A stretch of 64,000 nucleotides of DNA, from positions 26,352,001 to 26,416,000 of the forward strand of contig CM075988.1 of assembly GCA_038087875.1 (NCBI GenBank), given 5' to 3'. Both the position numbers and the translations under genes were made by a program. A model generated the notes under the pieces. That model saw only the letters and a list, made by a program, of their open reading frames with translations. It searched no databases and had not been told where the DNA came from. Each line of letters begins with the position of its first letter. The stretch's first letter is position 1. This DNA is from Malacoraja senta (taxonomy: Eukaryota). Shown here piece after piece: positions 841 to 54,257 of the stretch.

Positions 841-909
841 CTTTGGGCAGCTGTACCATCTCATTCAAGTGACCTGCATTAATCATTTATTGGTCAACAA
901 AGAGGAATA

Positions 910-15670: not shown

Positions 15671-16261
15671 CTGCCAAGAGATAGAAAGCCACGTTAAAAC
15701 ACCACGTTGACATCTTTCATCGGTCGTTCTGATTTCTTTCCTCTGCTCTCACTAATTTCATTCCTGCCAACCCCGTGAAGAGATGGCTACTCATGCTTCA
15801 GAAGCCCTGTTGTCACAAGCTCTCTCGTGCCTTGATAATGATGTCCCAGTGAGGCCCAGGGACATAGGTTACTTCCTGCAGCTCAGCTCAGTGCCTGTCT
15901 CCGTTTAGTTTCGTTTACATTAGATACAGCTAATGTAACAAATTTACATAAAAAGCTCCTGTGATTGAAATGAATTAAAAATATTAGGATTAAATAAAAT
16001 TAAAAAGAAAGGGTGCCGTGTTTACCTTTGCAGTGACGTTGTGCAAATGGATGGGTCTGACGCACAGACCTGGCGTGCTTGGTTTAATGCTACAGATGTG
16101 CATGTGAAGGGCATCCTGCCCCTCAGCTTCTATGAGGCTGGCAGAAGGGTGGCAGGGCAGGTGTGTTGGCATCTGATCTCCAGTTTTTTCCAAATGCTCT
16201 TTTGCAAAGCTGAGCAGTGGAATTCAGAGCCAAATATACCCACTGGCGATTGTCTCTGCAG

Positions 16262-16466
16262 CTTGTGTGTAGGGAGGAACTGCACAAGCTGGCTTACCCC
16301 CAAAAGCTGGAATAACTCAGCGGGACAGGCAGAATCTCTGGAGAGAAGGAATGGGCGACGTTTCAGGTCAAGACCCTTCTTCAGACAGAAGAAACATCAC
16401 CCATTCCTTCTCTCCAGAGATGCTGCTTGTCCCGCTGAGTTACTCCAGCACTTTGTGTCTACTTTC
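16262..16466. mobile_element. Head-to-head palindromic PLE-terminal-repeat unit (SCN4B intron 1)
   Basis: Inverted arms flanked by direct repeats TTGTCTCTGCAG (16250-16261) and TTGTCTCTACAG (16467-16478). Confidence 0.85.
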
Positions 16467-16865
16467 TTGTCTCTACAGTGACCTCAGTCCACATTGGAGC
16501 ACAGTGGACAGCACAGCTGTAGATTACTGAGGAGGCATTCATCTCTGTGACAACAGAACGCAGCTTTAAATTCTTCATCTGAGTAAGAACTTGTCAACGA
16601 GTTCTGGGATTACTCAGCAAGATAAGGAATACACACACTGTGCAGACAGGTCACGTTGAAGGTAAGAATTAGTCACATGCAACCTGTACTAAATTGCAGA
16701 TATAAGCAGGATAAGAATTGCACATTGTGCTAATAATGCAGCGTTCTCAATTACTTGGAAGTGTAAGCATTATTCACAGTGTAAATGGGCTGCAGTTTAC
16801 ATTAGTTATTGAAGTGTTAACAATAAAAGGTTTAGAACATTTTGCATGTTAAGAAAATAACCTGA

Positions 16866-17180
16866 GCAGCCCAGTGGCACAGCGGGTAGATCTGCTGACT
16901 CACAGCGCCAGAGACCCGGGTCCTATCCTGACCTCGGGTGTTGTCTGTGTGGAGTTTGCACGTTCTCCCTGGGACGACACGTGACATCTGGGTTCTCCGG
17001 ATTCCCCCCCACATCCCAAAGACGTGCAGGTTTGCAGGTTAATTGCCTCTGTAACTTGCCCCCAATGTGTATGGAGTGAATGAGAAAGTGGGATAACATA
17101 GAACTAGTGTGAATGGGTGATGAATAGTCGGCGTGGCATCAGTGAGCTGAAACGCCTGTTTCCATACAGTATCTCTAAAC
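16866..17180 (+). mobile_element. V-SINE copy
   Basis: Same head, V-domain and tail as 28141-28465. Confidence 0.8.
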
Positions 17181-17299
17181 CAATGCCTCCTGGTGTAACT
17201 GACAGAGCTTTGTTTCTATGGTGAACTAATGGCACAGGACAGGTTTTATGGAACAGCAGGTTAGAAGTGAGATAAACAGAGGGTTACGGACATCTGACT

Positions 17300-17495
17300 G
17301 GTGGACCAGGGGATGGAGATGGCGGAGTAGAGGGGGGAGGGATGCAGAGGTGGAGGGGGGTGGGACTGGGGGAGGGGAGGGGGGTTGGATGGGGATGGGG
17401 ATGTGGGGGAGGGGAGGGGTGGGGATGTGGGGAGGGGGATGGGGAGGGGAGAGAGGGACGAGGTTGGGGAGGGTGGAGGGTGCGGGTGGGGATGG
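17300..17495 (+). repeat. G-rich low-complexity tract (G-quadruplex potential)
   Basis: Many G3-G6 runs with short loops. Similar tracts at 22320-22392 (C-rich), 47980-48075 and 3200-3450. Confidence 0.8.
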
Positions 17496-17655
17496 CTCTG
17501 CCGATGTTGCGGGGCTGCAGGCATCTTCTGCCGGGTGGGACCGGCTCGGCTGAAACATTCACAGCCGCTACATGGAGTAGGATATTTGGGTCATTAGTCC
17601 ACACGCTGATCAGGATAACAAATATTCAGAAGGACCTCACTGAATGATATGTATA

Positions 17656-17873
17656 ATGTGTAGAAAGAAACTGCAGATGCTGGTTTTCACCAAACATAGG
17701 CACAAAATTCTGGAGTAACTCAGTGAAACAGGCAGAAACTCTGGAGAGGAGTGGGTGACGTTTTGGGTCGAGACCCTTTTTCACTCATCTCAACCCGAAA
17801 TGTCACCCACTCCTTCTATCCAGGGATGCTGCCTGTCCCGCTGAGTTACAACAGCATTTTGTGTCTATCTCCG
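17656..17873. mobile_element. Head-to-head palindromic PLE-terminal-repeat unit (SCN4B intron 1)
   Basis: Inverted arms with a perfect 12-bp direct repeat ATGATATGTATA at 17644-17655 and 17874-17885. Confidence 0.85.
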
Positions 17874-20800
17874 ATGATATGTATATTTATTTTTCAGATG
17901 ACAATCTACCAATACCAAATGGTTCACAACATACACCATGGAGATGTGAACATGACCTTCCAGCATTATAGACCATTATGTCCATTATAGAGTGTTATAG
18001 AGCGTTAGAGACCATTGTGGAGCATCATGTCCTGCAATGCTGAGTTAGAAGGTGAAGAATTACAGTCTCATTCCAATGAAGACTGGGCTGCCCCATCCAG
18101 TGCTGTTCATACCGAGTGATCTCAGAATCCTTATTTTAGGTGAAATATCCAATCAGAGTCCCATCTGCCCTCTTAGATGAAAGGAAAGTTCATCAATGTC
18201 ATCACTGCCAAGAAGTATATCCCCAGTGCCCCGACATCATTTATTCTTCAAGCAATATCATGAAACATAAATCATCGGATCATTATCTCCTTGGTGTTGC
18301 TGAGTCCACTTTGGCTACTGTTTCCAACATTACAACAGTGATTAAACATTAAAAAACACATCACTGGATAGAAACTAATTTGGGTCATCATGTGATTATG
18401 AAACATGCCATGCAAATGCATATACTTTCTTTCAATAGCACAAATAAAATCATTATTCAAGCCTGGATTTATGGATAGCATTCCTGATCCAGGATAGATG
18501 TATCCCAATAATACAGGTTTGTGCTGGAATTGGATGAGATGCAGCCTTATTGGCACTGAGTTATGAATCCACGGCACTGAAACATTTCGGAAGCACAGAC
18601 TGCACGAGGCTCCCTCAGTTGGCTGCAGCAAGCCTGACCATCTCAGTCTACATTCCTGTCGACCACTTACTGTAGCTGAGCTGCCCTCTCCTGCATCAGG
18701 TTCCATTATGAAACAGGAACACATGGTCTATTCCATCTCTCCCTCTCAGCTTGCACCATCTCTACATTGTCTCACTACCTTTCTTTCATCTACAATCATG
18801 TTCCTTTCAAAGACGTGCAGCTATCTGCTTAATATTCCGCAATACACTCCTAAAGGAACGCTGGCAAGCCCAGCGTCACTCTGTGTACTTACCAATTTGA
18901 GATAAAGTCTCACAGACTTCCTCAGTGCCAGTACCATGAATGCCTGCTCTTAATTTGTCTCAGTCGAATGCTAACATTAGCTAACTGCCACGAGCAGGCT
19001 AGAGAGTGGGTGAAGAGTAAAGGTTAAAGAGTGACTGACTACCCCTTGCTGTCATCCAACAACTCTCACTAGGAAAGTACACATACATTAACTCTCAATC
19101 ATGTTTTAACTCATACAGCAGAAGACTATTCAATCTATTGGGCTTGGACTACATGTTCAAACTCCCCTCTACTCTTTTCAAGTCAAGTTTATTGTCACGA
19201 GCACAAGTACATAAGGTCATAAGTTCTAGGAGCAGAATTAGGCCATTCGGCGCATTGAGTCTACTCCAACATTCAATCATGACTGGTCTATCTTTCCCTC
19301 TCAAACCCAATCTCCTGCCTCCTTCCCGTAACCTCTGACACCCGTACTAATCAAGAATTGGTCAATCTCTACCTTAACAATGTCCATTGACTTGGCCTCC
19401 ACAGCCTTCTGTGGCAATGAATTCAACAGATTCACCACCTGGTACAGGTACAATGAAACTTTTGAGCCAAAGACAAAGTGCTGGAGGACCTCAGCGTAAA
19501 TCGCATTGTGTTCCTCCAGCACGTTGATATTTTCCCCAAGATTACGGCATCAGATGCTCCTTGTGTCTACAACGAAAATCTTACACGCGACAAGCACAGA
19601 AAACATAAAATATACATACATTACATATGAAATCTGCAAATCAGTAACAAGAAATGGTATAATAAAACCAAGGCGTTAATGCAAAATAAATTAGAAAAGA
19701 AGTCTATGGTAGTACAAAAGGTGATCCATAATGTTCCATTGCCACGACAACATTAGAGTTGTGAGCTCTGTATTTCCCACTGATATCACTGAATTTACTC
19801 TGATTTCACTGTATCTCCCACTGAATCCCCTGATTTCACTGAATACACTACTGTACATTAAACATCATCATCAATTAATCCCCAACCCCCAGGAATGTGG
19901 TCAAAACTTGGACCAAATTATCCAAACTTTTTACTTAGACCTGCGCCACTGAATCTCACAATCTGTGAAAATCCATCTCCAAGAATGATCAAGATTCACA
20001 TATTATTAATGTTGACAAATCATGATTCTCTGATTTAGGATTTATTGAACACTAGATCGACAGTCCTTTCCAAAACTATTGACCCTCAAGGTTCATACAA
20101 TACAAACAACAGCAACGTACATTTATATAATGCCTTTAACATGGGGGGGGGAATATCACTGGAGCATTATTAGAAACATTTATACCAAGCCTTATTTGGT
20201 CACAAAAGTACGTTTTTAAAATCATGGTAAAGGGGGATGGAGTGATAGGGATTTTAGACTTCAGGCCATGCGCCCAGTCACTTGTCACCAATGGTCAAGT
20301 GATCACAATGGGAGATTACCAGGTGGTAGATTTGGGATGAACATGGAATCACAGTCTCACCAGGGACTCATTAACTGTTGTGTTGTGTCGTTTTAAAATT
20401 GCTGTTTTTTTCTAATATGTAAATACCGATTACTGTTCTATTCTGTTCTGTAGTTTTTTGCACAATCCGCAGGCATTGCCATTTTCATTTCACTGCACAT
20501 CTTGCATGTGTATGTGACAAATAGACTTGACTTACCAGGATAAGGAAGATTGGCATGATTGCAATCATGTACAGTCTTTCTGCTGACTGGATAGCACACA
20601 ACAAAAGCTTTTAATTGTACCTCAGTGCACGTGACAATAAACTAAAACTGAACAGAACAGAACAGAGTTATTTGGGCTGAAGATGGGCATGAATCCGTTT
20701 GGCCAACCCCCTAGGGTTGGACGCCTCTCACCTTGGTGACAAGTGTTAGATGACTTCAAGACTTATAGACAACCATGAACAAACCAAACAAACGTGCAGA

Positions 20801-21239
20801 GTGAGGCCACAAAGCCAAGTACTCCTGCAGATGGAACTGAAGAATGGTCTCGACCCGAAACGTCGCCCATTCCTTCTCTCCAGAGATGCAGCCTGACCCG
20901 CTGAGTTACTCAAGCATTTTGTGTCTACCTTCGGTTTAAACCAGCATCTGGAGTTCCTTCCTACACAATCTCTTTTTGTTAATGGAAAGCAGGGGGGTTT
21001 GCGCTGTCTGAATTGCCAACGAGTGCCTGGTCGATAGCTGCAAACGTAAGCTGCCTCGTCAGTGAAGGAAGATTCAGGATTCCGCACGTGAATGTTATAT
21101 AACATGGAGAATATAGACCGTGAATATAGGACATCCACCGTGTTTCAAGATCACAGCCTTTATTTCCATCCAAGGCTGGCTGGCTATCTCTCACCTTCCC
21201 CAAACTCAATGGTGGGTTTTTATTACAAACGGCCAATTC

Positions 21240-21960
21240 TCTACGAGGCGCGGGTTGGGATCCGCTGAGCCAGAGGTCAGTGCGGACAGGCCGAGGCCGA
21301 GGCCGAATCGCCGCGTCGGGACTTAACCCGGGTTATTTGTGGCGTTGCATCTGCAGTTCTTTCTTTGTGGGGTAGTAGCGGGACTGGGCTGCGGGACTCC
21401 CCCGCCGGGAACAAACTTACAGCCCGCAGATCAGACAAGCACCCACCCCACGAGAACTTTGGTCCAAGTTACTGGGACTTCATCAAATGGTGAGATATTC
21501 TGATCTAAACCCCCATCCAGATACAAATCCAAACTAGAATAATCTACCACAAACAGGGCAATGGCCAGGCGGGCGGCGAGTGCTTGTTTTTACCAACATT
21601 GACCATTAAGAAACATGGTTTGTGGAGCCAGGATGGAGCATGGATCAAGGACTCTTGGTCGCTGCCTTACCCGTCAGGAGAATCAGCAACAGGGCACGGG
21701 GGGGTAGTTTGTGGGGGTTCTCCCAGCTGTCCGCAGCTCCTGATGCCGTGGCCATGCTGCAGCACTAGCGGATGCTCGGCCCTACAGGCTGAGCCTAGCC
21801 CCAGGAGCCGACAAGCAGGGCGCTGGGTTGAGCTGCGGATGTCCCGTTAGTTGCAGAGAACTGGCTGTCTCCCCGCTAACACTCCGCTCTCTCCTGCCGC
21901 TGTATGTAGCCCACACTGCGGAACTGTGACTGAGCCGACTCCACGATCTGCTGTGTGATT
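21240..21960 (-). promoter_or_regulatory. CpG-rich promoter / first-exon region of SCN4B
   Basis: Locally high GC and CpG density around the ATG exon relative to CpG-poor flanks. TSS cannot be determined from sequence. Confidence 0.5.
21671..21755 (-). CDS. SCN4B: Sodium channel beta-4 subunit, coding exon 1 (signal peptide MATASGAADSWENPHKLPPRALLLILLT)
   Basis: ATG at 21755 in a CpG-rich region. 85 nt with a hydrophobic stretch, ending G|GTAAGG in phase 1, which matches exon 2. Full join 21755-21671, 15670-15492, 14176-13963, 11928-11799, 10053-9966 = 696 nt, 231 aa plus stop. Confidence 0.8.
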
Positions 21961-22056
21961 CTGCATTGCAGTCACACGGCTGCTGTCGTCATCACCCACA
22001 GAGGCTGGGCTAAACAACAGCCCTGCAACCCGCTACACTTACTACTAGCGACCCCT

Positions 22057-22125
22057 CATACAACACAGACAGACCAGCTACACATCATACAACACAGACA
22101 GACCAGCTACACATCATACAACACA
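22057..22125. repeat. 29-bp tandem repeat, about 2.4 copies
   Basis: CATACAACACAGACAGACCAGCTACACAT is repeated exactly. Confidence 0.9.
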
Positions 22126-22889
22126 CTCATCCCTCATACATTACAAAGCCCGGGCGGGGCACAGATTACAAATGATTAGAAAAGTTATACAACTTTGTGA
22201 ACTTTCCCGCATCTTGGTGTGATGTGGGTGCGGCAACCGGAGCCCCCTCCCCTGTAGGTCAGCACTCCTCCAGTTACCCCGAGTCATCCCGCGGCAAGTG
22301 TTTCATGAGGTGTTTATCCTCCCCACCTTCCCCTCTCCCCCCTCCCCCCTTCCCCCTCCCCCCCTCTACCCCCCCCCCCTCCCCTCTCTCCCTGACAACG
22401 CGGGGACCATATTTGCCCTGGCAGCGAATGATGAAAGTGGCCCGGTAGTGGGGCAGCGAGTGTTTGGTGCAGGGCTGGTGTAGCGCTGGTGTAGCGCTGG
22501 GCGCTGCCTGTACTCGCCGTGTTGATGGTGTACATCTGTACGCACACCGTGCACCCCTTTACACCGACTCCTTGCAGAAGTGGAGACGCAAGGAACTGCA
22601 GATGCCGGAGCCTTGAGCAAAACACAAAGTGCTGCAGGAATTCAGCGGGTCAGGCAGCGTCTGTGGAGGGAGTGATTCGGGTCGGCAGCTTTCTTCAGAT
22701 TCATTCAGGCGGAAGAGAGGTGAGGTTAGGACAAAGCCCGGCAAGTGCTAGGTGGAGAAACGGGGAACTTTTTGTAAACCAGCATCTGCAGTCCTTCTAG
22801 AAACACGTTCCCTGTCCACGTTCTCCAGAGACGCTGCCCGACCTGCTGAGGAGCTCACGGAGGAGAATTCCTTCAAAGAGTCTCGACTT

Positions 22890-23505
22890 CATAACACGAG
22901 GAGTTGAGTATAGGAGCAAAGAGGTCCTCCTGCAGTTGTACAGGGCCCTAGTGAGACCACACCTGGAGTATTGTGTGCAGTTTTGGTCTCCAAATTTGAG
23001 GAAGGACATTCTTCCTATTGAGGGAGTGCGGCTTAGGTTCACCAGGTTAATACCCGGGATGGCGGGACTGTCATACGCTGCGAGAATGGAGCGGCTGGGC
23101 TTGTATACTCTGGAGTTTAGAAGGATGAGAGGGCATCTTATTGAAACATGTAAGATTATTAAGGGTTTGGACACGCTAGAGGCAGGACATATGTTCCCAA
23201 TGTTGGGGGAGTCCAGAACCAGGGGCCATAGTTTAAGAATAAGGGGTAAGCCATTTAGAACGGAGACCAGGAAAAACAATTTCACACAGAGAATTGTGAG
23301 TGTGTGGAATTCTCTGCCTCAGAGGGCGGTGGAGGCCGGTTCTCTGGATACTTTCAAGAGAGAGTTAGATAGGGCTGTGAAAGATATGGGGAGAAGGCAG
23401 GAACGGGGTACTGATTGTGGATGATCAGCCATGATCATATTGAATGGCGGTGGTGGCTCGAAGGTCCGAATGGCCTACTCCTGCACCTATTGTCTATTGT
23501 CTATT
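22890..23505 (+). mobile_element. CR1 LINE 3' fragment
   Basis: [22 protein letters not shown]...WNSLPQRAVEA followed by the 3' UTR and a (gtctatt)n tail. Confidence 0.9.
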
Positions 23506-23702
23506 GACATGAAATGTCACCCATTCCTTCTCTCCAGAGATGCTGCCTGTCCCGCTGAGTTACTCCCAACTTTGTGTCTGTCTAAGGAATTTCAGATACA
23601 AAAAAGTGTTGGAGTAACTCACCGGGTTGGGCAGCATCTCTGGAGAACATGGCTAAATGTTCAGACTGAAGGAGGGTCTTGATCCGAAATGTCACCTATC
23701 CA

Positions 23703-24366
23703 TGTTCTCCACAGATGCTGCCTGACCAGATGAGTTACTCCAGCAACTTGTTCTAGAAGGGAATATCTATTATTGGCTTCAGGTTTGACAGAGATTGTCC
23801 CACCAGAGGGAACAAAAATGAGTAAGGCTTATAAACATAAAGGGGGAAGCAAGAAGTTTAAATAATAGAGAATATTAAATATATTTACTAATGAAACAAT
23901 CTATAATTCATTGGCAAATGGACTAAAACTGTTCCATCATTGACACCAACGTCTCCAGTGAAATTTCAGTAATATATATTTCATAGGTTGTTGCAGAGAC
24001 AAATGTAGAGTTAGAGTCATAGAGTGATACAGCGTGGAAACGGACCCTTTGTCCAAACCTGCCCACACCGGCCAACATGTCCCAGCTACACTAGTCCCAC
24101 ATTTGGTCCATATCCCTCCAAACCTGTCCTATCCATGTACCTGTCTAACTGTTTCTTAAACGTTGGGATAAGCCCTGGCCCAACTACCTCCTCTGGCAGC
24201 TTGTTCCACAGACCCACCACCCTTTGTGTGAAAAGGTTACCCCTCAGATTCCTATTAAATGTTTCCCCCTTCACCTTAAACCTATGTCCTCCGGTTCTCG
24301 ATTCCCCTACTCTGGGCAAGAGTCTCTGTGTATCTACCCAATCTATTGCTCTCATGATCTTATACA
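23703..24366 (-). repeat. Copy A of an inverted ~660-bp composite duplication
   Basis: Colinear reverse complement of 42048-42698, including about 260 bp of otherwise unique AT-rich sequence. Confidence 0.9.
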
Positions 24367-24526
24367 ATGGTGGTTTGGGATACTTGTTTTACCAATATGA
24401 ATATGATATTGGTTGGTACCACTTTAAGGTTTAAAGCATGTGGCAATCAGGTTCTATGTCTAGAGATGGTCAAACTCCACTGAAACTTCTCAAAGCTAGC
24501 CTCAAACAGGCAATGTTGGAAATGTT

Positions 24527-24733
24527 TAAGAAGGAACTGCAGATGCTGGAAAAGTCAAAGGTAGACAAAAATGCTGGAGAAACTCAGCGGGTGAGGCAGC
24601 ATCTATGAAGCGAAGGAATAGGCGATGTTTCGGGTCGGGACACTACTTCAGGTTGAGACCTGAAACGTCACCTATTCCTTCGCTCCATACTTGCTGCCTC
24701 ACCTGCTGAGTTTCTCCAGCATTTTTATCTACC
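24527..24733. mobile_element. Head-to-head palindromic PLE-terminal-repeat unit (variant subfamily)
   Basis: Inverted arms with a perfect 13-bp direct repeat TGTTGGAAATGTT at 24514-24526 and 24734-24746. Confidence 0.85.
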
Positions 24734-25565
24734 TGTTGGAAATGTTGCTCTTTACAATGTATATTATTTTACAAATCATATTGTTAGGTTATATTACTTG
24801 CTATCCTCTAATAATTTAGGGATATTGAGATGATACAGTATAAAAAGTAGTGATGAGGATAATGTAAACGTGTCAGTTTGACTCACCATGGCAGGGCATG
24901 GTGCTTGGAGACTCACATCCTTGAGTCTGCAGAGTTATTAATGTGAGGGACTTTAGCTTCTTAAATGCGCTCGTCTCAAGGGAGAGGTCATTCTACAGGG
25001 CTATGAATCTTAACCTGGATTTACAGCAGCTCTTTTACATAATATACAACCATTTACAGCATTAAATGCGCCAGAGACCAGATGCATACAGATTAAGAGG
25101 GGACGATAGATTTGAAGCTGGCATCTGTGGTCAGAAGGTGATTGATATTTAGATTGAACATCATCCATTAGTTTGAAAGACGCTGAACATTTGACTGAAG
25201 AGATTTCATAAATTGTCAAGAAAACAGAAATATTGTTTCACACGGAAAGAAAATGATGGTCCATGTGGAAACAGTGATTGGAGTTCAGTCATGGGAAGAT
25301 TTTTAATGTGAGTCACAGTAACCACTTGATTCACCTCTGGTTGAAACCTCTTTTGGCATCCCCTGAATCATTTTTCAATTTACTGTTGCCAATTAAACCT
25401 GGCTGCAATGTCCTGGATGTGTACTGTTGGAGTGATCAGCTGCCCATCAGCCAAAGTGAAAGAAGATTATTTTGTTACGCATTGTTTAAAATTCACTTTG
25501 GGATTGTGGCGATTTTGGCAAGGCCCTCCCCCAATTGGCTTGACCAGGTGTTGGTGAGGTGCCTT

Positions 25566-25860
25566 TGTTTAGTTCAGTATCGTTTAGAGATACAGTGTGG
25601 ATACAGGCCCTTCGGCCCACCAAGTTCACCCTGACCAGCGATCCCCCCTACACTAGTTCTATCCTCCACACTAGGGGCAAGTTGCTGAAGCCAATTAACA
25701 TGAATCTGCACGTCTTTGGAATATAGAAGGAAACCGGAGCACCTGGAAAAAACCCACGTGGTCACAGGAGAACGTACAAACTCCGTACAGACAGCACCCT
25801 TAGTCAGGATCGAACCCGGGTCTCTGGCGCTGTGAGGCAGCAACTCTACCGCTGAGCCAC
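25566..25860 (-). mobile_element. V-SINE copy
   Basis: Reverse complement of the same SINE. Confidence 0.8.
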
Positions 25861-26041
25861 TGGGCCACCATCGACCTGTGCCTCCTGAAACCACTGAGCG
25901 TCCTGGTGAAGCAAGTCCCACAGTGGGTAGGAAGCTCTGGCATTTAGTGCCAGTGATGATGAAGGACAGGAGAGTAAAATAAATATCCACAGAAGACCTG
26001 TGTGTGTGGACCCCAATGTAAGGAAACATAACCACACCAAC

Positions 26042-26176
26042 AGTCTGAAGAAGGGTCTCGACCCGAAACATCACCCATTCCTTTTCTCCAAAGATGCTGC
26101 CTGTCCCATTGGGTTACTCCAGCACTTTGTGTCTATCTTCAGTATAAACCAGCATCTGCAGTTCCTTGCTACACAA
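26042..26176 (+). mobile_element. Solo PLE terminal repeat (representative; others near 1632, 7660, 20837, 23510, 27155, 29684, 30558, 31410, 52750, 58470, 58710)
   Basis: Recurrent sequence agtctgaagaagggtctcgacccgaaac.tcacccattcc...gagttactccagca...gtgtctatcttc.g..taaaccagcatctgcagttcctt. Confidence 0.85.
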
Positions 26177-28465: not shown

Positions 28466-31400
28466 ATTCTCCACAGCTCATTTCAAGTTGGTGCTTATTC
28501 TTGACTAAATTTCATCTTCACGATTGCACTGAATGTTCTCCTGTGGTCAAGGATCCCTCTAGAATCTACAGCTGCTTAGAGTAGGAATGATGATGCAGTT
28601 TGGTATTTGTGCATCCGCCACAGTTATAGTCAGTTCCAATGCATTATTAAATCATCAACAGATATTTCAGGTCAGATAACTCTGAGCTCTCCAGTATAGT
28701 CATGTCCTTTGCTTTAACCTACTAGAGTTCCAGGATGCTAGCTGATTCAGAATTCTGGAAAAGATATCCTGATCTACCCTGCTCTACAAAAGAAATGTGA
28801 TTCACTGCAGTAGTTTATCTGAAGAATTTCACTCCAGCACATTGAAACAATCTATTGTATCTATCTCCACCCCCACCCCTGCCAATGTGTTTCAGGCCCA
28901 CAATTGCCTCACATATCTCCGTTAAACTTTCCCCTTCTCACCTTCTAGCCAAGCCCTCTAGAGTTGACGAGTTTCGCCCTGGGAACAAAGTTCTGACTGT
29001 CCACCGTGCTTGTGCCTCCCATCATTTGATGTACTAGAACAATCACATCATCACACACCAGTACCATTGTGCACTGGCTCAACAATACACTTAACCTACG
29101 ATATAATAAAAGCAGAAAATGTGGAAAACACTCAGCATGTCGGGCAACATCTGCGGTAAGAGAAACAGATACAGTTTCAGGAAGGATACAAGGGCTGTCT
29201 GAACTGAAAGGTTAACTCCTGATATACTGAGTGTTTCCAGCATGTTCTGGTTTTATTTAAGACTTCCAGCATCTGGAAGTTATTTATTTCCAACTAATTT
29301 CCAACTCAGTAATGCATGTACTGGTACCACAGAACTGTAATGTAGTGATCACTTGCACTACAGTGCACTAATATCAGTGGTGCATTAGCCCAGTCATACA
29401 CAGGACTCTTTGGTCACATTTCACACCAATTGCCTGATAATACACTCATCAATGTCTTCCTGGTCAATTCCACAGTCCCACTCCCAGCAATTGGCCACGC
29501 TCTGTCCCTGGTAAATAGAGCCCTGTGCCCTGAGAAACACAGCCAGCACTGAATGCAAACTGGTGAGTACCAACTATTCAGTTGAGGTTTGCGTCATTGA
29601 AAGGAGAAGACATCAAACCTATTAATTGTTCTTTATCTCTCGACATCACCATCTATATCTCTTGTTTCCCATTCCCCTGACTGGTCTAAAGAAGGGTCTC
29701 GACCCAAAATGTCACCCATTCGTTCTCTTCAGCGATGCTGCCTGTCCTGCTGAGTTACTCCAGCTTTTTGTGTCTATCTTTGGTTTAAACCAGGATCTGC
29801 TGTTCCTTCCTGCACAAACCAATAGTGTCAGGATGCGGGCACCTTGAGTACAGCTTTGTAAAGGTCAGTGTGTGATCCTGCAGCTGTGCCTGCCACTCTC
29901 AGCTGTCGTCTCTCTTTACTCCAGCAATTGTCAGCAGGCCAGGCCACGAATTAAAGGCAAACGCTAAATTGCTGAGCACCCATGGACGTCACGTTCAATG
30001 ATCAACTCGGTAGCATTTTCCCTCCTTCCTTCAGCCTGCTTTGCTCAAATTAAAACACAATCCACTCTCTCGACCTTTACTGGGTGTCAGCCCCGGTAGT
30101 GTGAAACAGGTCCTGACCTCACCGACGTGCTGAGGCAGAGAGATGCCTTTGTGCGGAGGTGGATTTTATACTTCATTGCGGTGACATTTTGGGGATCAAA
30201 CTTCACTTGAGTGAAATACCAAAACTAAGACTCTCGGTGTTATTGTGGGAGATTGCCGCCCTGTCTGCAATGTCACATGTACATGCTATTCATTTGCTGC
30301 TCTCTCGGTGGGCACCAGTCAGAGAGTTTCCCAGGGTCCTCACCAATATTTATCCTTCAAACGAACAAAAGCCTTTAGCTTATCACTTTGCTGTGCCATA
30401 ATTGGCTATTACATTAGGTTTAGGTTTATTGTTACAGAGGTACAGTGAAAAGCTTTGTTTTACATGCTATCTAATCAGATCAGATAATACTGGACCTGAA
30501 TGCCATCAACCCACACTCAAGTACAATAGGTAGAGCAAAGGAGAAGATACTGAATGCCGAAGGGTCTCGATCCAAAAAACGTCACCCACTCTTTCTCTCC
30601 AGAGATGCTGCCTGTCCTGCTGAGTTACTCCAGCATTTTGTGTGTACCTGTGGAATATATTTCTCAGCACAAAGACCAATGTCCGTACTGAGGTAGAGGC
30701 TAATTGGACGGTTCAGAACAACATTTTAGGCAAGCACAATAAAACTCTTTTTTTTCCCATTTATTTACAAATTGGGTTGAATCTAATGGGAGAGCAGAGC
30801 AGTTAATGCGAGAGGTGGGGCTGTGGATCAGTGTTTGAATGTCACAACACGGCCCTGAATGTGATGTAGCATTATTTTCACCTCACAGTCTTCTCTGAAT
30901 TACCTGTCACTTATTGCAGAAGTAATTTGACAGCAGGTGTGATACTTGAAAAGTTAATTCCATTAAGTAATCTTTGGCACCTTTCTGTTAATTGCATTAT
31001 CAGTGGAGTAGATAGAAATGAGTTAGTGCAAGCATTAGATGGTGAATCAATAAACGACTTGCAGGTTATTAACGCGTCATAAATAAAACCACTATTTGAC
31101 CATATCCACACAGAGTATTCCCTATTGATGCCTTCATTGGGTTCAGGGTGTGATTTTATTTCATTATTTTGCTGAGCTCCACTTGCTTTCTGATGGTTCT
31201 GACAACATAATTCCAATATATGATGAACCTAAAGGGGAAGATCACGCCCCACAAATATCCCAAACCTTCCAAACGCTTTAACTCAGACTACATGTCAATT
31301 ATAGGAATCTTATGGATAACTAGAGAAAATGGTGAGAACTTCAGACAACTGGTACTGGAGCAAAAGCCTTGACTGAAATGAGAGCATAAATGTTGTTCAG

Positions 31401-31947
31401 ATTCTCCACGGTGAAGAAGGGTCCCGACACAAAATATCACCTATCTTTGCTCTTCGGAGATGCTGCCTGACCCGCTGAATTACTCCAGCACTTTGTGTTT
31501 TTTTTGGGTAAACCAGCATCTGCAGTTCCTTGTTTCAACCTCTAACCTTCTGCCATATTGCCTTGCAGCTATAAAGCACCTGAGGAGGTGTCCAAGACCA
31601 GAGGATTTCACTGTGGGATCTGTAATAGTGTCAAAGCACAAAATCCAGCATGTTGGACAATATTCTGAAAGTAGGGGCTGAGAGATTTGGTGGGTGGTGA
31701 AAAATGATGCGTATAGCTGACGGATGGTTTTGTAAAATATGGTCCAGGTAAGGTGGTACTTTGGTGGGAAACAAGATCGACGAAACAAAATGGTAGAACT
31801 AAAGTTAGGTGGTGGGACCACATTTGGTGTACTATATTCCTGCTAGAGGAAGGATGTTGTTAAGCTGGAATAAAGTGCCGAGAAGATGTTGCCAGGACTT
31901 GAGGGGCCTGAGCTAAAGGGTGAGGTTGGATAGGATCGGATCTTATT

Positions 31948-32864
31948 AGAAACATAGAAAATAGGTGCAGGAGTAGGCCATTCGGCCCTTCGAGCCTGCA
32001 CCGCCATTCAATATGATCATGGCTGATCATCCAACTCAGTATCCTGTACCCGCCTTCTCTCCGTACCCCCTGATCCCTTTAGCCACAAAGGCCACATCTA
32101 ACTCCCTCTTAAATATAGCCAATGAACTGGCCTCAACTACCTTCTACGGCAGAGAATTCCACAGATTCACCACTCCCTGTGTGAAAAATGTTTTTCTCAT
32201 CTCGGTCCTAAAAGACTTCCCCCATCCTTAAACTGTGACCCCTTGTTCTGGACTTCCCCAACATCGGGAACAATCTTCCTGCATCTAGCCTGTCCAACCC
32301 CTTAAGAATTTTGTAAGTTTCTATAAGATCCCCCCTCAATCTTCTAAATTCTAGCAAGTACAAGCCGAGTCTATCCAGTCTTTCTTCATATGAAAGTCCT
32401 GACATCCCAGGAATCAGTCTGGTGAACCTTCTCTGTACTCCCTCTATGGCAAGAATGTCTTTCCTCAGATTAGGAGACCAAAACTGTACGCAATACTCCA
32501 GGTGTGGTCTCACCAAGACCCTGTACAACTGCAGTAGAACCTCCCTGCTCCTATACTCAAATCCTTTTGCTATGAATGCTAACATACCATTCGCTTTCTT
32601 CACTGCCTGCTGCACCTGCATGCCTACTTTTAATGACTGGTGTACCATGACACCCAGGTCTCGTTGCATCTCCCCTTTTCCTAATCGGCCACCATTCAGA
32701 TAATAGTCTACTTTCCTGTTTTTGTCACCAAAGTGGATAACCTCACATTTATCCTCATTATACTGCATCTGCCATGCATTTTCCCACTCACCCAACCTAT
32801 CCAAGTCACCTTGCAGCCTCCTAGCATCCTCCTCACAGCTAACACTGCCCCCCAGCTTCGTGTC
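31948..32864 (-). mobile_element. Young CR1 LINE 3' fragment (RT C-terminus)
   Basis: Long open frame DTKLGG...LQGDLDRL...[15 protein letters not shown] plus 3' UTR. Confidence 0.92.
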
Positions 32865-32899
32865 ATATTCTTTGGAGTGTGATCTTATCAAGGTGTATA

Positions 32900-33330
32900 C
32901 AATGTTGTGATAGTCCCTGCCTCAACTATCTCCTCTGGCAGCTAGTTCCATGCATCCACCACCTTCTGAGTGAAAAGTTGCCTCTAAGTTGCCCCTGCCC
33001 TGGATAAAAGACTCCGTGCCTCTACCCTATCTATTCCACTCATGATCTTATACACCTCTATAAGATCATCCTTCAGCCTCCTGCACTCCAAGGAATAAGG
33101 TCCAGCTTGCTCAACCTCCACCTTATTGCTTAGGCCCTCAAGCCCCAGCAACATTTGGTGTCAGGGGTTATGGGGAGAAGGCAGGAGAATGGGGTTAGGA
33201 GGGAGAGATAGATCAGCTATGATTGAATGGCAGAGTAGACTTGATGGGGCCGAATGGCCTAATTCTACTCCTATTCCTTACGACGTTACCAACATCCTCG
33301 TAAATCTTCTCTGCACTCTTTCCAGTTTAG
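32900..33330 (-). mobile_element. CR1 fragment interrupted by an opposite-strand CR1 3' end (about 33155-33289)
   Basis: Host sequence resumes after the insert. CAACAT is duplicated at 33149-33154 and 33290-33295. Confidence 0.65.
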
Positions 33331-34395
33331 ATGTGTTGTGTGTACAATAGGAGAAGGTAGGATCAGGATAGTCCTGTGTACTCACAACCCTCTACGTCCC
33401 CATACAGCCTAGTGACCATCACATTTCAGACTCAGCAAGGAATATTAAGCAGTGACCATCTTCAACATCAGGTTAAGCCCAAAGGGCAACGAGACCTAAC
33501 TGGGGAAATGATGAAAATAAATTGGAAACACCACCAAGATTTATTTCAATCACATATATTTTATTTTTAACTAAGTTACAACGAACAGATATCCAGAATC
33601 CCTGGCAATTCTTTCATATAACTCTGGTAATACTGAAACCTCCCAAAGGAGAAAAACCATGAAAAAAAAATAAAAAACATCATAATTTCTCAACTGCAAC
33701 CCTCACTTGTCCAACACACCATTCTGGAGTGGATCAGTCCATCAAGGAAGGTAAATGCTATAGGTGTGATCACAAGCTCACTCTGTGGGAATCCATTCAC
33801 AATTCTGCTAGAAATTGGAGGGGAGATCTCTGTGTACGTTCAACGTTACAGGCAGAGTAACAGGCAGATCATCACCACTGACGCAAGAGTTAGTCTATGG
33901 GATTATCTCACTCATTCAGAGAAGACGCTGAGCTGGTCCTTCAGGATTGTCCTGGGATGTCCACAAGTTAAGATCCACCTGCTGTGTATTGTTAACTCGG
34001 CCAACAGTCACGCATCATCTTGTGAGTGATCTACAAGATCTGGAGACACAAACGGCTGCAAATACTGGAATGTGGAGCAACCAATAAACTTCTGAAGGAA
34101 CTCAGCAGGTCAAGCAGCATCTGTGGGAGAAGGAGTGGTGGACATTGATGCATCAGCTGAACTTTTCTTCCCCCCCCCCCCCCCCGCACAGATTCTGCCT
34201 CACCTGCTGAGTTCCTCCAGCAGATTTTCTGTAGAATGTGAAGAGTTTGCTTGTTTTTCAATGGGACGATAAAAGATGGGAAACTCTGAGGATGGATGTG
34301 TTAGACTCCAAAGGCAGAGTGCTAGCCAACTTACACCACAAAATATACAAATGCAAACTTGGCAACTGCAGTGAAGTCACAGCGCATTCAATGCT

Positions 34396-34960
34396 GGACA
34401 AAAATGCTGGAGAAACTCAGCGGGTGAGGCAGCATCTATGGAGCGAAGGAATAGGCGACGTTTCAGGTCTAGACCCTTCTTCAGACTGATGGGGCGGGAC
34501 AAAGAAAGGAAGAGGCGGAGACAGTAGGCTGTGGGAGAGCTGGGAAGGGGAAGGGGGGACAAAGCAAGGCCTAACTGAAATTGGAGAAGTCAATGTTCAT
34601 ACTGCTGCCACGAGGTGCATTCAATGTTGATGTGAGGATCAGGAGATGAGACCACGCTTTAACCACGAGAGCCCAACTTCAATCATCTCTCATCCCCTTT
34701 TCATTTCTAGTCATTGTCACCATCTCCACTCACTTGCTAAACACCCCCACCCCTCACCTGTATACACCTATCACGTTAGCTTGCTCCACCCCCACCTCTC
34801 TTTCCCAGCTTTCTCCCCCCTACCCCGAGAGTCTGAATAAGAATCCCAACCCGAGATATCACAGGTCCATTTCCCTCCACAGGTGCTGCCTGACACATTG
34901 AGTTCTTCCAGTACTTTGTGTTTTGCTCCAGATTCCAGCATCTGCAGTCTCTTCTCTGTC
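34396..34960. mobile_element. Penelope-like 3' ends in inverted arrangement
   Basis: Minus-strand terminal repeat plus end of the GIY-YIG ORF (34396-34610), followed by a degenerate plus-strand 3' end and terminal repeat (about 34700-34960). Confidence 0.6.
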
Positions 34961-37164
34961 CATTGAATGAACCCTAGGCATTTGGACGAAGGTCATGTGT
35001 ATTCCCGGTCAGAGTGGCATCAACAGCAGACTGATATTGTAACAGCGACCCCATGATGTCCAACTAGGAACAACGGAGCTAAACTCAGGGTCTGGGTGGG
35101 GAAGTTTGGAACAAGGTCTGAAGTAAATTAACTCGCGTGTTGAAAGATTAAACATGAGTCGAAGTACTAAAACTTGACAGAACGATCAAAGTGCAGTTGT
35201 GCAGGGAAGATGAGGAGCTTGTGGACGGATGTCTGTGTTGGTCCAGGCGTTATAGTCCATGGATGGTCCAATGGAGATCAGGAACATGGAGTTTCCATCA
35301 AGATCACAACATTGACATCATACAATACCTGACCATGTGATGGTTGATCACATGACACTTCACTAAACAATCAATGCCAGTGTTTGCAGTCTTGTGTCTG
35401 ACCACTTGTACTAATCCTGCACTTGTCCAATGTTACTCTCCCCACATATCCATCACCCCCCCCCCCTGCACCCCCCCCCAACCACCCAACCTGCACCCCC
35501 CCCGCCCCCACCCCTCAGCCCCAATTCAATGCACACCCACACACACAGATACACAGGGAAAGTTGCAGTTAACCTACTGTCCAGCACACCTCTGGGTTAT
35601 GGACGGAGACTGAGCAGCCAGAGGAAACCATGTGGCCACAGGGAGAACGTGTCAACTCCAGCACCCGAAGAGATCACAATTGAACCCAGATCGCTGGAGA
35701 TAAGAGGCAGCTGCTCGATTAGCGGTGCCGCCCAATGTAATGCTGACTGCTTTTGTACCTGAGGCTGCTGCCATAGCTGTGGGCCAGGCCATGGTTGGCA
35801 GAACCTCTCCCTATAATCCACTGGCCACATGGGTGCCCACTATCTCCAATGATCTGGGTGAGTGGAGGCAGTGGCCAGTATGGCTACCCTCAGGTCCCAA
35901 ACTCTGGGACACAACGGGAAAGTTGGGAACCCAAACAGAAAGCCTCACGTCAGCCCCAGTGATTAGAATAACATGCTTATTCCGTTAGTTGGCAGTATGG
36001 GACTTCAGATTGCGCTCATAGTTACAAAGTTTTACTTTTAGATACGAAAATAGATCCTTTTCCAGTCTGTAGCAAGCTCGATTTCTAACCACGAAGAAAC
36101 TGGATTAAAAAGTAGGCCTTTTTGTGTTGTACAAAACCTATGTTTCTGGAATGTTCCCTGCCACTGATTGGTGGACTTGTCGCTGCCTCTTTCCAGGGGG
36201 GGACATGTAAAGATATCTCACAAGGATCCAGTCAAAGCTATTTCTGAGAATTTGCCCAATCTTGGATTATTTGGACAAATGCGTCCCATGAATAATTTCA
36301 GGATTCAGGAACACCCAAGCAAGAGCTTAGAATCATTACAATGGATATTTTGAGGTGTTATTACTCTGTTTTACATAAAGTACACCTTCAGCCACTTTGG
36401 GCCAACGTTAACCGAGGCAGCCAGTGGGAAGTTGAGACTGGTGGTGAAGCTGGGTTCCATATCTGCTTGGTGGCAGGATCGGGTGGGGAATGTAGAAACG
36501 GCAGTACACCTGATCTGCTGGGACACCTACTGGACAATGTGTAGGTCCACCCTGCCACAGCAGCTGATGGAAACCGCTCACCAGCTACATCTCAGCCACA
36601 ATGGGAGCAGGGAATTGACTGGGGGCTTTGCTGGCAATAATTAACTCCCCAAAAAAACGAATTTAGAGAAAAGATTACATTACCATTCCCCTCAACGGGC
36701 AACCAGCCTGGGTGGACATTATGTTTTACCAATGTGCCACCTTCCCATTGACACCCAATTTAAAAACATGCACATTTATAACAACAACCTTGGTTATAAT
36801 TCACCACACTCACATGGCACATGACAATAAGCGCAGTATTTACGCTGATGCGGGCGGCAAAGCTGGTACCCCACTGGTGCTGCCAGTTTTGGTGATGACA
36901 CCTGCACACAGTTTGGAGCTGGATGGCATGCATGATGGATCAATGGGTTCACGGAGGGCACGGCAGTAGGTGAGCTCGTGTTAATGTGTAGCAGCACGTG
37001 TAGAGCGTAGAGAAGAACCAGTCTTGTCCCAGGAAGCACGATGAGAACAGTTGTCATCAGGGGCTGGCCGGCCAAGGCAGCCATCTCTCACTGGCCCTAG
37101 TGCCGCCTGCAAAAGCAGGAAGGAATTTCAACCTCAATACCAGAAATTATCTTACATTACAGTC

Positions 37165-38140
37165 TTACAGGATGGAAACAGGCCCTTCGGCCCAACTCGG
37201 CCATGCTTTCCTGCTTCTTCCACATGGTTTTACCATTAGCACGAAATGAGAAAATGAGCTGTCACATGGACATAGGGCTTGGACCCTTGCACCACCTTTA
37301 ATGAAACCATGGATGATCTGACAGTAACTCCAGCATTGTATTCCCATCCATGCACTGCATCTTTCACCTCCATGTCCATGAAGTGTCCATCTACATTGAA
37401 AGTAGTCATGGACTTCTTTCCACCACCCTCTGGGAGAGTTCCAAAGAGTTTTGATCATCTGAGATTTTAAAAAAAGTTGCCCCATCCCTCTCCTAAATGG
37501 GTGACCGCTTATTTTTAAATGGCGACCCCATTTCCAGATTCTCCCACAAGAGAAAACATCCTCTTCACATCCACTCTGTCACGACAATGAAGCATCCTAT
37601 TTGTCACGTTTTCCTCACGAGTGTACCTCCCCATTCCAGGTATTTGTCCAGTAATCCCTCTCTGAATGCTTCCAACATTCTTCCTTACATGAGGAGACCA
37701 ATGTGTACACAGCACTAAAATGTCATCTCCACAAAGCATTGTGTAACTGCACCATTATCTCACGACTTGTGTATTCAGTTGCCCGAACATGAAATAACAC
37801 AATTATTAGTGTTCATAATTACTTACAGGACCAGCAAACATACTAAATCTTGGTAGACCCCTCTGTATTTCACGCCTCTGCAATCCTACACCAGTTAAAT
37901 ATTATTTATTTTAATCACCTTTCCCCTTATTATACTTTATATGGCTGATGTTTGCGTGTCTTCATCTATTTACTTGCAATCTCCTGATGTCCTCTTCCCA
38001 ACTTACTTTCCCACCTCTCCATGTCTAATTTGCAAGTTTAACAATTGTATCTTGGTGCCTTCATCCAAGTAATTGACATAAATTGTAAAATGCTGTAAAA
38101 ATCCCAACACCCATAAACATCTCGTCAACTTGTAAAAGAT
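37165..38140 (-). mobile_element. Old degenerate CR1 fragment(s)
   Basis: Residual peptides VNYLDEG, WSPH and RMFSLVGES, and a CR1 3' tail. Confidence 0.6.
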
Positions 38141-38157
38141 CCATTTGCACCGATAAC

Positions 38158-38552
38158 CAAAGATCCTATAGCAAGCAAGATAGACCACTCGACGAAAAAG
38201 ACGTAGTACAGTCATGGGCAGATTCATGGGTCATTTTCGGCCCCATTTCCGTAACCGGCTTTTGTCTCCGCACCAAAGATCCCATAGGATACTAGTGCGG
38301 AGACGGAAGCCGGTTACGGAAACATCCTCGTAAAAATAAAAGTTATTTGGTAAAAATCTTCTCCTCATTTTCAGAATTTTAATTTATTAACACAAACTGT
38401 TCCCCCGCAACGTTGATTACACTGCGAGTCGAGTCGGGTCCGGTTATGGAAATGGATGAAAAAAAGGCCCACGTTCCGTTCCGTTGCGTACTACACGTCA
38501 GCCCATTGCATTTAGCAGGAGTGGTCTATCTTGCTCCGCTATAGGATCTTTG
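38158..38552. mobile_element. 395-bp non-autonomous DNA transposon (MITE), hAT- or P-like
   Basis: ~33-bp TIRs CAAAGATCCTATAGC.AGCAAGATAGACCACTC. 8-bp TSD CCGATAAC (38150-38157) / CCGATAAT (38553-38560). CpG-rich. Confidence 0.85.
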
Positions 38553-38826
38553 CCGATAATCCATTTCTTGTTAACGAACCAATCTTTTATCTACAACAAC
38601 CCATCACCTCCTGTACCATGAGCTATCACATGGAAATATATTCCTGTTTCTTCATTGATGGTGTAAATCCCAGTCCATATACGACTGTGAGATAGATTAC
38701 CTTTAGCAGAAAGACTGCAGAGATTGAAGAAGGAAGCTCACACCACCCGCTTCACAAAGGCAGGTAGGGACGGGCAATAGGCTCGAGCCTCACCATCAAC
38801 ACTACACCCAATTAAATTAATCAAGT

Positions 38827-39048
38827 TAGACACAAAAAGCTGAAGTAACTCAGCGGGACAGGCAGCATCTCTGGAGAGAAGGAAAGGGTGATGTTTCCGG
38901 TTTTGACACTTTTTCAGACTGATGAAGGGTCTCGACCGGAAACGTCACCCATTCCTTCTCTCCAGAGATGCTGCCTGTCCCGCTGAGTTACTCCAGCTTT
39001 TTGTGTCTATCTTCGGTTTAAACCAGCATCTGCAATTCCTTCCTACAC
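38827..39048. mobile_element. Head-to-head palindromic PLE-terminal-repeat unit just downstream of the SCN2B stop codon
   Basis: Inverted arms flanked by AATTAATCAAGT (38815-38826) and AATTAATTAAGT (39049-39060). CTGATGA...GAAACGTC core at 38919-38946 on the plus strand. Confidence 0.85.
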
Positions 39049-39138
39049 AATTAATTAAGTGGAGGGAGTGGGTCTTGAACCCGCCATGTCCCAGACACAA
39101 ACGCTACTGCTATGCCCAATCATCGTGTCCTTTCATCC

Positions 39139-43467: not shown

Positions 43468-43517
43468 CTACAGCGACGGAAAGGAGAAGAAGCCATCAGA
43501 AAACAAATACCTCTAGG

Positions 43518-54111: not shown

Positions 54112-54167
<56 letters not shown>

Positions 54168-54214: not shown

Positions 54215-54257
<43 letters not shown>

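What the first reader, a model, noticed from the sequence alone, without database searches (positions are those of the whole stretch)
16250..39060. ~200-bp head-to-head palindromic mini-elements inserted as single units with 12-13 bp TSDs and a one-sided tail
Seen: four units (16262-16466, 17656-17873, 24527-24733, 38827-39048) each consist of two inverted copies of the PLE terminal repeat joined at or near the hammerhead core. Each is flanked by its own 12-13 bp direct repeat, two perfect and two 11/12. In each unit only one arm carries the ~35-40 nt extension ending CAGCATCTGCAGTTCCTTCCTACACA, while the other stops near GTGTCTA. Junctions differ between units. At 38915-38925 the arms overlap on a CTGATG microhomology. 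Established: Penelope insertions show inverted pseudo-LTRs with a short tail extension on one copy. Inference: these are ORF-less, maximally truncated PLE insertions, or a non-autonomous family, generated by template switching. They would be mislabelled as SINEs or MITEs. More degenerate pairs lie at 650-840, 23595-23750, 29110-29280, 34040-34230 and 42657-42840.
Basis: partly seen in the sequence, partly recalled or inferred. Interest (0 to 1): 0.7.

Follow-up and report, generated by a model that had tools for sequence, protein, structure and literature searches.

The report
Palindromic mini Penelope retroelement insertions
These ~200-bp mirror-image repeats in a cartilaginous-fish genome are stump-sized, single-event insertions of a Penelope-type jumping gene, and their fixed pairing of one long with one short arm offers a way to test how this little-understood retroelement copies itself into DNA.

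Summary
Observation confirmed at the stated coordinates. All four units are head-to-head pairs of the 3' terminal repeat (pLTR) of a GIY-YIG Penelope-like element (Neptune-type fragment at 50214-50924), each with a 12-13-bp direct repeat (chance about 0.002 each). The window holds 46 arms and 10 head-to-head pairs (0.5 expected), one of them new (19459-19567). Partner arms share subfamily variants (p<1e-5), so each pair is one insertion. Centres all differ, arguing against a master palindrome or MITE. Arm 3' ends fall in two classes 35 nt apart; 9 of 10 pairs (10 by eye) join one long to one short arm (p about 0.01). Best reading (0.55): both target nicks prime reverse transcription, one at each of the element's two known start sites, and the two short cDNAs are joined near the hammerhead's 5' edge. 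Fold-back priming is the main rival. No empty site was recovered from four relatives. Inverted pLTR, one-sided tail and TSD are published PLE features; this is their ORF-less extreme. The scan noted the same thing before in another shark-like genome.

The parts
16262..16466 (.). U1 palindrome: long (tailed) arm on -, short arm on +; TSD 16250-16261/16467-16478 (11/12); 4 extra bases between tail end and TSD
17656..17873 (.). U2 palindrome: long arm on -, short arm on +; TSD 17644-17655/17874-17885 (12/12)
24527..24733 (.). U3 palindrome, both arms of a second subfamily; long arm on -, short on +; TSD 24514-24526/24734-24746 (13/13), tail end overlaps the TSD by about 3 nt; inferred present at the same place in 3 of 4 relatives
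38827..39048 (.). U4 palindrome: short arm on -, long arm on +; TSD 38815-38826/39049-39060 (11/12); arms overlap at 38914-38925 and share one variant found in no other arm of the window
19459..19567 (.).
42647..42855 (.). Older palindrome (short arm -, long arm +) with TSD 42636-42646/42856-42866 (10/11)
647..844 (.). Older palindrome (long -, short +), arms are each other's nearest neighbours; 7-nt sense-strand piece of the element at the centre; no TSD found
23584..23755 (.). Older palindrome; left arm has a tail remnant with an internal deletion (by eye), 3' half of the right arm and its flank are a copy shared with 42049-42700; no TSD found
29109..29278 (.). Highly decayed palindrome (short -, long +); no TSD found
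34045..34235 (.). Decayed palindrome (long -, short +); no significant TSD
50214..50924 (-). 3' fragment of the parent PLE: end of the ORF with CX4CXXC motif and GIY-YIG endonuclease (50418-50924), 3' UTR, then the pLTR arm ending at the short stop
50282..50316 (-). Minimal hammerhead motif (core starts at 50309) preceded by the interrupted palindrome at which arm 5' ends cluster
   Evidence: descriptor features from PMC4209133
1633..1733 (-). Solo short arm with 12-bp TSD (11/12); like solos at 34397-34607, 58704-58784 and 59385-59425 it shows that the short end can itself abut a TSD
48472..48598 (-). Solo long arm with its own 15-bp TSD (14/15); the neighbouring arm 48669-48788 is an independent insertion (27% apart), an internal control for chance pairs

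Best explanation
Each unit is one abortive insertion of a Neptune-type Penelope-like element, built anew at the target. The RT-endonuclease makes two staggered nicks about 10-15 nt apart in AT-rich DNA (inferred from TSDs). Both 3'-OH ends prime reverse transcription on the pLTR RNA, one at the distal start site (tailed, long arm) and one at the proximal site 35 nt upstream (short arm) (two end classes shown; priming at both inferred from the anole PLE biochemistry). Both cDNAs stop after about 50-135 nt, mostly at or before the 5' edge of the hammerhead motif, where the template probably begins or RT stalls (clustering shown, cause inferred). The two cDNA 3' ends are then joined, by annealing at the element's interrupted palindrome (U4) or by end-joining with trimming, a few matching bases or a few added bases (others), and gap filling leaves TSD-arm-inverted arm-TSD (inferred). 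The units encode nothing and are not a self-propagating family. That they are single-event PLE insertions I put at about 0.9; the confidence below is for the two-ended priming mechanism.
For: Both ends of every unit are RNA-3' ends of the pLTR, oriented from the GIY-YIG fragment. TSDs beyond chance. Of 46 arms, 22 end at the tail, 21 at the short stop, 3 earlier, none between profile positions 107 and 119; over 1000 contigs in each of two relatives stop matching at 39049, the tail end. 9 of 10 pairs are long+short by profile, 10 of 10 by eye, where unpaired arms are 13 long, 10 short, 3 other (my binomial estimate p about 0.01). Four short solo arms abut their own TSD at the same short stop, so the short end behaves as a priming end. 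Partner arms share variants (U3, P644, P34040, P42647 rank 1-3 of 31-35). Ten different centres. PMC11167929 (text parts 1-2 of 4): the anole PLE cuts and extends both strands, starts RT at two internal sites that bound the tail, prefers AT-rich DNA, is modelled as a dimer, and does not need hammerhead cleavage. TSDs here are 68% AT against 55% for the window; no arm starts at the hammerhead cut site.
Against: No intermediate was observed and no empty site recovered. Four of 10 pairs have no TSD and two only weak ones. For the four named units alone the true pairing of arms ranks 2nd of 24, because three belong to one subfamily. A symmetric dimer with two RNAs would not obviously forbid long+long or short+short pairs, so the strict asymmetry needs an extra assumption (one RNA, or an asymmetric complex). 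[quoted passage not shown] The biochemistry is from a Poseidon element, not a Neptune. Only 1 of 12 tailed solos has a TSD, which this model does not explain. Arm-to-arm gene conversion could also produce shared variants.
Confidence: 0.55

Rival explanations
1. Fold-back (self-priming or template switch): one cDNA primed at the tail runs to the 5' edge of the hammerhead, folds back or switches onto itself, copies the arm a second time, and the hairpin end is cut at the short site and joined to the second target end.
For: Explains long+short in every pair without extra assumptions. The best self-complementary 13-mer of the arm (10 of 13) lies where 5' ends cluster and U4 is centred on it. PMC3846280 (passages) reads palindromes at inverted PLE junctions as self-priming; PMC8557442 (passages) attributes the tail to endonuclease resolution.
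Against: Short ends also occur on solo arms with their own TSD. In several pairs the short arm reaches further 5' than the long arm it would have been copied from (P644, P23584, P42647). The anole data tie both tail borders to RT start sites.
Confidence: 0.27
2. A non-autonomous family: one or a few master palindromes are transcribed and retrotransposed whole, and centres diverged later by deletion in the unstable hairpin.
For: Similar overall size (205-225 bp) of the four named units; U1 and P23584 could be read as a U4-type centre with a later deletion (my reading). Non-autonomous PLEs exist (PMC8557442 passages).
Against: At least four subfamilies each form pairs, with partner arms matching each other rather than the same-side arms of other units; all ten centres differ; the short end would have to be a 5' truncation that always falls at the same site as the 3' end of solo short arms.
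Confidence: 0.1
3. Two independent insertions, the second targeted next to the 5' end of the first.
For: Arms are dense (46 in 64 kb); one such chance pair exists at 48472-48788.
Against: One TSD spans both arms; 10 pairs against 0.49 expected; only 2 tail-to-tail and 1 tandem neighbours within 100 bp; partner arms match in subfamily.
Confidence: 0.04
4. A MITE or foldback DNA transposon that uses the arms as terminal inverted repeats.
For: Palindromic shape, about 200 bp, flanking direct repeats.
Against: Ends are asymmetric by 35 nt, TSD length varies 10-13, the arm is the 3' end of a GIY-YIG retroelement and occurs mostly unpaired (26 of 46).
Confidence: 0.02

Closest known systems
EN+ Penelope-like element insertions with inverted pLTR, one-sided tail and TSD (Adineta Pen2a_Av, PMC3846280; scheme in PMC8557442 Fig. 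2 legend; D. virilis Penelope, PMC2377424; passages read)
   Same: Head-to-head inverted 5'-truncated copy, 30-40-nt tail on one end only, TSD around the whole, overlap at a palindrome near the pLTR 5' end (15 bp in Pen2a).
   Different: Here nothing lies between the two inverted arms: no ORF and no direct second pLTR; whole insertion 110-225 bp; TSD 10-13 bp against 8-10 bp; about ten per 64 kb in this window.
Poseidon PAc of Anolis, in vitro (PMC11167929, text parts 1-2 of 4)
   Same: Two internal RT start sites bounding the tail, AC-rich end, AT-rich target, hammerhead near the start of the arm that is not used to define ends.
   Different: Poseidon rather than Neptune-type; the parts read do not treat inverted products (one occurrence of 'inverted' in the paper, for a 3' block); start site showed no strand difference in vitro.
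Dual minimal hammerheads on opposite strands 100-700 bp apart in Schistosoma mansoni (PMC4209133, parts 1-2 of 4)
   Same: Short PLE-derived pieces with paired, oppositely oriented minimal hammerheads.
   Different: Mentioned in one sentence, without TSDs, tails, junctions or mechanism; different phylum and PLE family.
L1 twin priming (recalled, not from a call)
   Same: Both target nicks prime cDNA and give an inversion inside one TSD.
   Different: In L1 the two cDNAs cover different, non-overlapping parts of one RNA; here both cover the same 50-100 nt.
Non-LTR retrozymes (bioRxiv 10.64898/2026.07.22.740005, passages)
   Same: Small, ORF-less, hammerhead-bearing, PLE-related, present in Chondrichthyes.
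   Different: Retrozymes are head-to-tail tandem units; these are inverted pairs with varied centres.

Membership tests
EN+ Penelope-like element | C-terminal GIY-YIG endonuclease upstream of the terminal repeat | tested here: met
   PF01541 E=2.9e-5 at 50418-50924; arm follows about 100 nt downstream; 19 homologs, best from rays, a skate and sharks.
EN+ Penelope-like element | PLE-clade reverse transcriptase in the same ORF | tested here: inconclusive
   No RT in the window fragment; 2 of 19 longer homologs carry PF00078 and several show a YIDD/YTDD motif. No tree built.
EN+ Penelope-like element | Minimal hammerhead motif in the pLTR (core, bulged base, G-C closing pair, palindromic 15.2-16.2) | tested here: met
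   My descriptor matched 3 arm copies and 0 sites in 20 shuffled windows. Helix I is only 2 bp; Rfam gave no match; cleavage not tested.
EN+ Penelope-like element | Optional 30-40-nt tail at the 3' end | tested here: met
   Two end classes about 35 nt apart, 22 and 21 of 46 arms.
EN+ Penelope-like element | Adjacent inverted 5'-truncated copy inside one TSD | tested here: met
EN+ Penelope-like element | pLTR plus tail contains the start of the ORF | tested here: inconclusive
   One frame is open across the whole arm in 5 of 6 young copies, but the 4 proteins retrieved with it are chance read-throughs, not PLE ORFs. No full-length element in the window.
Neptune clade | CX2-5CxxC motif between RT and GIY-YIG (shared with Nematis; PMC8557442) | tested here: met
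   CX4CXXC in the window ORF and in homologs.
Neptune clade | Placement by RT phylogeny | not tested
   No RT sequence in the window; Nematis not excluded.
MITE | Symmetric terminal inverted repeats starting at both ends | tested here: not met
   One end has 35 extra nt.
MITE | Fixed-length TSD and uniform copies of one master | tested here: not met
   TSD 10-13 bp; ten different centres; several subfamilies.
Non-LTR retrozyme | Head-to-tail tandem units | tested here: not met
   1 tandem neighbour against 12 head-to-head neighbours within 100 bp.
SINE | tRNA/5S/7SL-derived Pol III head | not tested
   No tRNA scan run; Rfam found no family at gathering score anywhere in the window; the arm is accounted for as PLE sequence.

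The most novel reading that the evidence does not exclude
The strict long+short rule is the genomic footprint of one asymmetric PLE complex that primes both DNA strands on the same pLTR RNA, one strand at each start site, so that every inverted pLTR in any PLE insertion is the second primed cDNA, and the dense short copies arise when the complex starts on the upstream pLTR and runs off the transcript's 5' end. Cartilaginous-fish genomes would then hold a large fossil library that fixes nick spacing, start-site coupling and RNA 5' end for an element class whose integration steps are unproven.
Probability: 0.35. Interest if true: 0.65.

Novelty: new variant of a known kind. Interest (0 to 1): 0.4.

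Why it matters
How Penelope-like elements form inverted pLTRs is open: the papers read offer self-priming, endonuclease resolution and two internal RT start sites without joining them. These ORF-less units strip an insertion down to its two ends and one junction, are easy to assemble and are frequent in this window, so a genome-wide count of end classes, TSD lengths and centres can decide between two-ended priming and fold-back. They also fold into near-perfect hairpins (U4: -160 kcal/mol, z -22) inside or beside the sodium-channel beta-subunit gene cluster, so they are candidate editing or small-RNA substrates, as inverted Penelope copies are in flies (PMC3681739 passages); nothing here shows expression. 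The architecture itself will not surprise a PLE specialist.

Tried and rejected
Whole-genome census: not possible, no genome is held for this window. Empty sites: contigs of 4 of 24 listed runs (four related organisms) were laid on 19250-39240, which omits U1 and U2; the joint table showed 15 of about 96,500 rows, all repeat-to-repeat, so no empty site was seen and none is excluded. No RNA holder listed. Rfam: no match at gathering score in the window or at E<=10 around 50150-50450. Energy folding of four arm stretches gave no significant structure, z -1.6 to 0.7. Hammerhead cleavage as source of 5' ends: rejected, none of 20 solo or 20 paired 5' ends maps to +28. ORF start in the arm: unresolved. 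First guess that 23584-23755 and 42647-42855 are one duplicated insertion: rejected, only 23706-24366 is shared and the rest differs by 36-38%. Pair 48472-48788 and the cluster 22586-22850 were left out of the ten pairs (gaps 74 and 72 bp, above my 60-bp limit; the first has a TSD around one arm and 27% arm divergence). 'TSDs go with short solos, not tailed ones': 4 of 7-8 against 1 of 12, Fisher p 0.04-0.11, too weak to claim; one of the four (59383) lies in a short tandem repeat. A candidate splice acceptor just 5' of the hammerhead does not mark the 5' ends exactly and no shared upstream exon was seen. Literature: eight searches returned no title or abstract start describing ORF-less PLE palindromes in sharks or rays; subscription papers, Repbase/Dfam entries and all supplements (notably Fig. 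S2 of PMC11167929) were not seen and may already describe them.
Full report
Setting. No whole genome is held. The window is from a cartilaginous fish by inference: the GIY-YIG ORF has its best named homologs in rays, a skate and sharks. Exon pieces on the minus strand at 43259-43495 and 39930-40358 match sodium-channel beta-2 (E about 3e-19 for the second) and a further V-set exon lies at 13943-14197, so the four units sit within or between genes of that cluster.

Observation. The four units, their coordinates and their direct repeats are as stated: 11/12, 12/12, 13/13 and 11/12. With the same search on 3000 random position pairs, 7 reached the lower score and none reached 12; mismatched combinations of the four left and right flanks scored 0-4. 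U4 folds as one long hairpin (z -22).

What the arm is. A search with U4's long arm gave 39 hits; a profile built from 16 tailed copies gave 46 arms and none on the reversed window. One copy continues upstream into a 168-codon frame (50418-50924, minus) with a Pfam GIY-YIG match preceded by CX4CXXC, the linker motif that PMC8557442 gives for Neptune and Nematis (passages). This fixes orientation: both outer ends of each palindrome are RNA 3' ends, and the centre joins two 5' truncations. The arm begins with a minimal hammerhead motif that fits the features in PMC4209133 (parts 1-2 of 4): 3 copies match my descriptor, 0 in 20 shuffles; helix I is only 2 bp and Rfam finds nothing. One frame is open through the arm in 5 of 6 young copies, but I could not show that it is the ORF start.

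Two 3' ends. Of 46 arms, 22 end at profile position 120-134 (tail), 21 at 88-106 (short stop), 3 earlier, none at 107-119. In two relatives over 1000 contigs each stop matching at 39049 and continue in T/A-rich DNA, so the tail end is family-wide. PMC11167929 (parts 1-2 of 4) shows for the anole element that the two borders of the tail are two internal RT start sites, that both DNA strands are cut and extended, and that hammerhead cleavage is not needed; it also reports no strand difference in start site.

Pairs. Ten head-to-head pairs lie within 60 bp: the four named, the five 'degenerate' ones, and a new one at 19459-19567. Shuffling gives 0.49 on average, at most 5 in 20,000. Two wider neighbours (gaps 72 and 74 bp) were left out; one of them, 48472-48788, is two independent insertions. 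TSDs: 4 clear, 2 weak, 4 none. Partner arms differ by 0.171 on average against 0.268 when re-paired (0 of 100,000 permutations; the same without the 23584 pair), although for the four named units alone the true pairing is 2nd of 24. U3's arms share five rare states and U4's arms share one seen in no other arm. So each pair came from one source in one event, with conversion between arms as a caveat.

One long, one short. By profile, 9 of 10 pairs join a tailed to a short arm; the tenth has a tail remnant by eye. Unpaired arms are 13 long, 10 short, 3 other, so independent choice would give mixed pairs about half the time; my binomial estimate is p about 0.01 for 9 of 10. Four short solos and one tailed solo have TSDs of 11-15 bp, so either end can abut a TSD alone.

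Centres. Relative to the hammerhead core (0), arm 5' ends are about -2 to -5/+20 (U1), +1/+11 (U2), 0/+8 to +15 (U3), overlapping at about -6 (U4), +15/0, +62/+65, +40/-5 and -6/+23 to +40 in others (read partly by eye because the local aligner overshoots). No two are alike. Of 20 solos, 13 have aligner starts between -18 and +4, 4 further upstream and 3 downstream; none starts at the cut site (+28). The best self-complementary 13-mer of the arm (10 of 13) spans -7 to +5, so two cDNAs ending there can anneal end to end, or one can fold back; U4 has that centre.

Age and empty sites. Contigs of four related organisms align to unique flanks at about 90-95% identity. Contigs from three of them begin about 24-30 nt inside U3's right arm (worked out from the distance-to-end column), as expected if the insertion is present there, and listed pieces run into several solos likewise. 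No empty site appeared among the 15 joints shown of about 96,500; U1 and U2 were outside the stretch. The test is therefore unanswered.

Mechanism. Shown: PLE origin, single events, two end classes, long+short pairing, varied centres clustered at the hammerhead's 5' edge, AT-rich TSDs (68% against 55%). Inferred: staggered double nick, priming from both ends at the two start sites, early stop at a template 5' end or structure, joining of the cDNA ends (0.55). Fold-back with endonuclease trimming, close to readings in PMC3846280 and PMC8557442 (passages), explains the asymmetry more simply but not the TSD-flanked short solos or pairs whose short arm reaches further 5' (0.27). A master palindrome (0.10), sequential insertion (0.04) and a MITE (0.02) fit poorly.

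Known and new. Inverted pLTR, one-sided tail, TSD and overlap at a 5' palindrome are described for Adineta Pen2a and drawn as general PLE features; inverted terminal repeats are common in D. virilis Penelope (PMC2377424 passages); paired opposite-strand minimal hammerheads were noted in Schistosoma; de novo PLE insertions of median 128 bp occur in Chlamydomonas (PMC9977147 passages). PMC8969392, PMC12910113 and the 2026 retrozyme preprint (passages) added no account of such palindromes. Eight searches gave no listing on ORF-less PLE palindromes in sharks or rays, but subscription papers, repeat databases and supplements were not seen. L1 twin priming is recalled, not read. Two earlier notes of this scan describe the same kind of unit and the same 5' clustering in another genome; they are unchecked AI notes and were not used as support. 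Verdict: real, a minimal variant of a known insertion structure, useful as a test set for PLE integration; interest 0.4.

Noticed in passing
window 23706-24366 and 42049-42700: A 660-bp tract is duplicated in inverted orientation 18 kb apart (2% divergence in the arm part, 9-10% elsewhere). One end lies inside the short arm of a palindrome at both loci, the other within about 12 nt of a LINE fragment's truncation point. The 42647-42855 unit keeps its TSD, so it looks like the donor; possibly repair of a break at one palindrome using the other.
   Followed up: partly
window 43259-43495, 39930-40358, 13943-14197 (minus strand): Exons of a sodium-channel beta-2 gene and of a second V-set gene, probably beta-4 (the second name is my inference).
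   Followed up: partly
solo arms 1633-1733, 34397-34607, 58704-58784, 59385-59425 versus 12 tailed solos: TSDs were found for 4 of 7-8 short solos but 1 of 12 tailed solos (p 0.04-0.11); unexplained.
   Followed up: partly
window 50311-50345 (minus strand): A pyrimidine tract ending in CAG directly 5' of the hammerhead core resembles a splice acceptor, the position of the intron end in D. virilis Penelope (PMC4209133); no donor identified.
   Followed up: no
window 749-755: The centre of the 647-844 palindrome holds a 7-nt sense-strand piece that begins exactly at the hammerhead cut site; may be chance.
   Followed up: no
window 59374-59480: A short solo arm is followed by tandem repeats of its last bases plus the TSD, like repeated re-priming or later slippage.
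   Followed up: no
window 22586-22850: A scrambled cluster: tailed arm extending into 3' UTR-like sequence, an isolated tail piece, and a partial arm cut by a LINE.
   Followed up: no
window 53946-55330 and 56180-57160: Long CA/GT-rich and purine/pyrimidine-rich tandem arrays that dominate repeat and ORF listings.
   Followed up: no
window 63278-63907 and 57724-57984 (minus strand): LINE-like ORF remnants; the second has a weak RVT_1 match.
   Followed up: no
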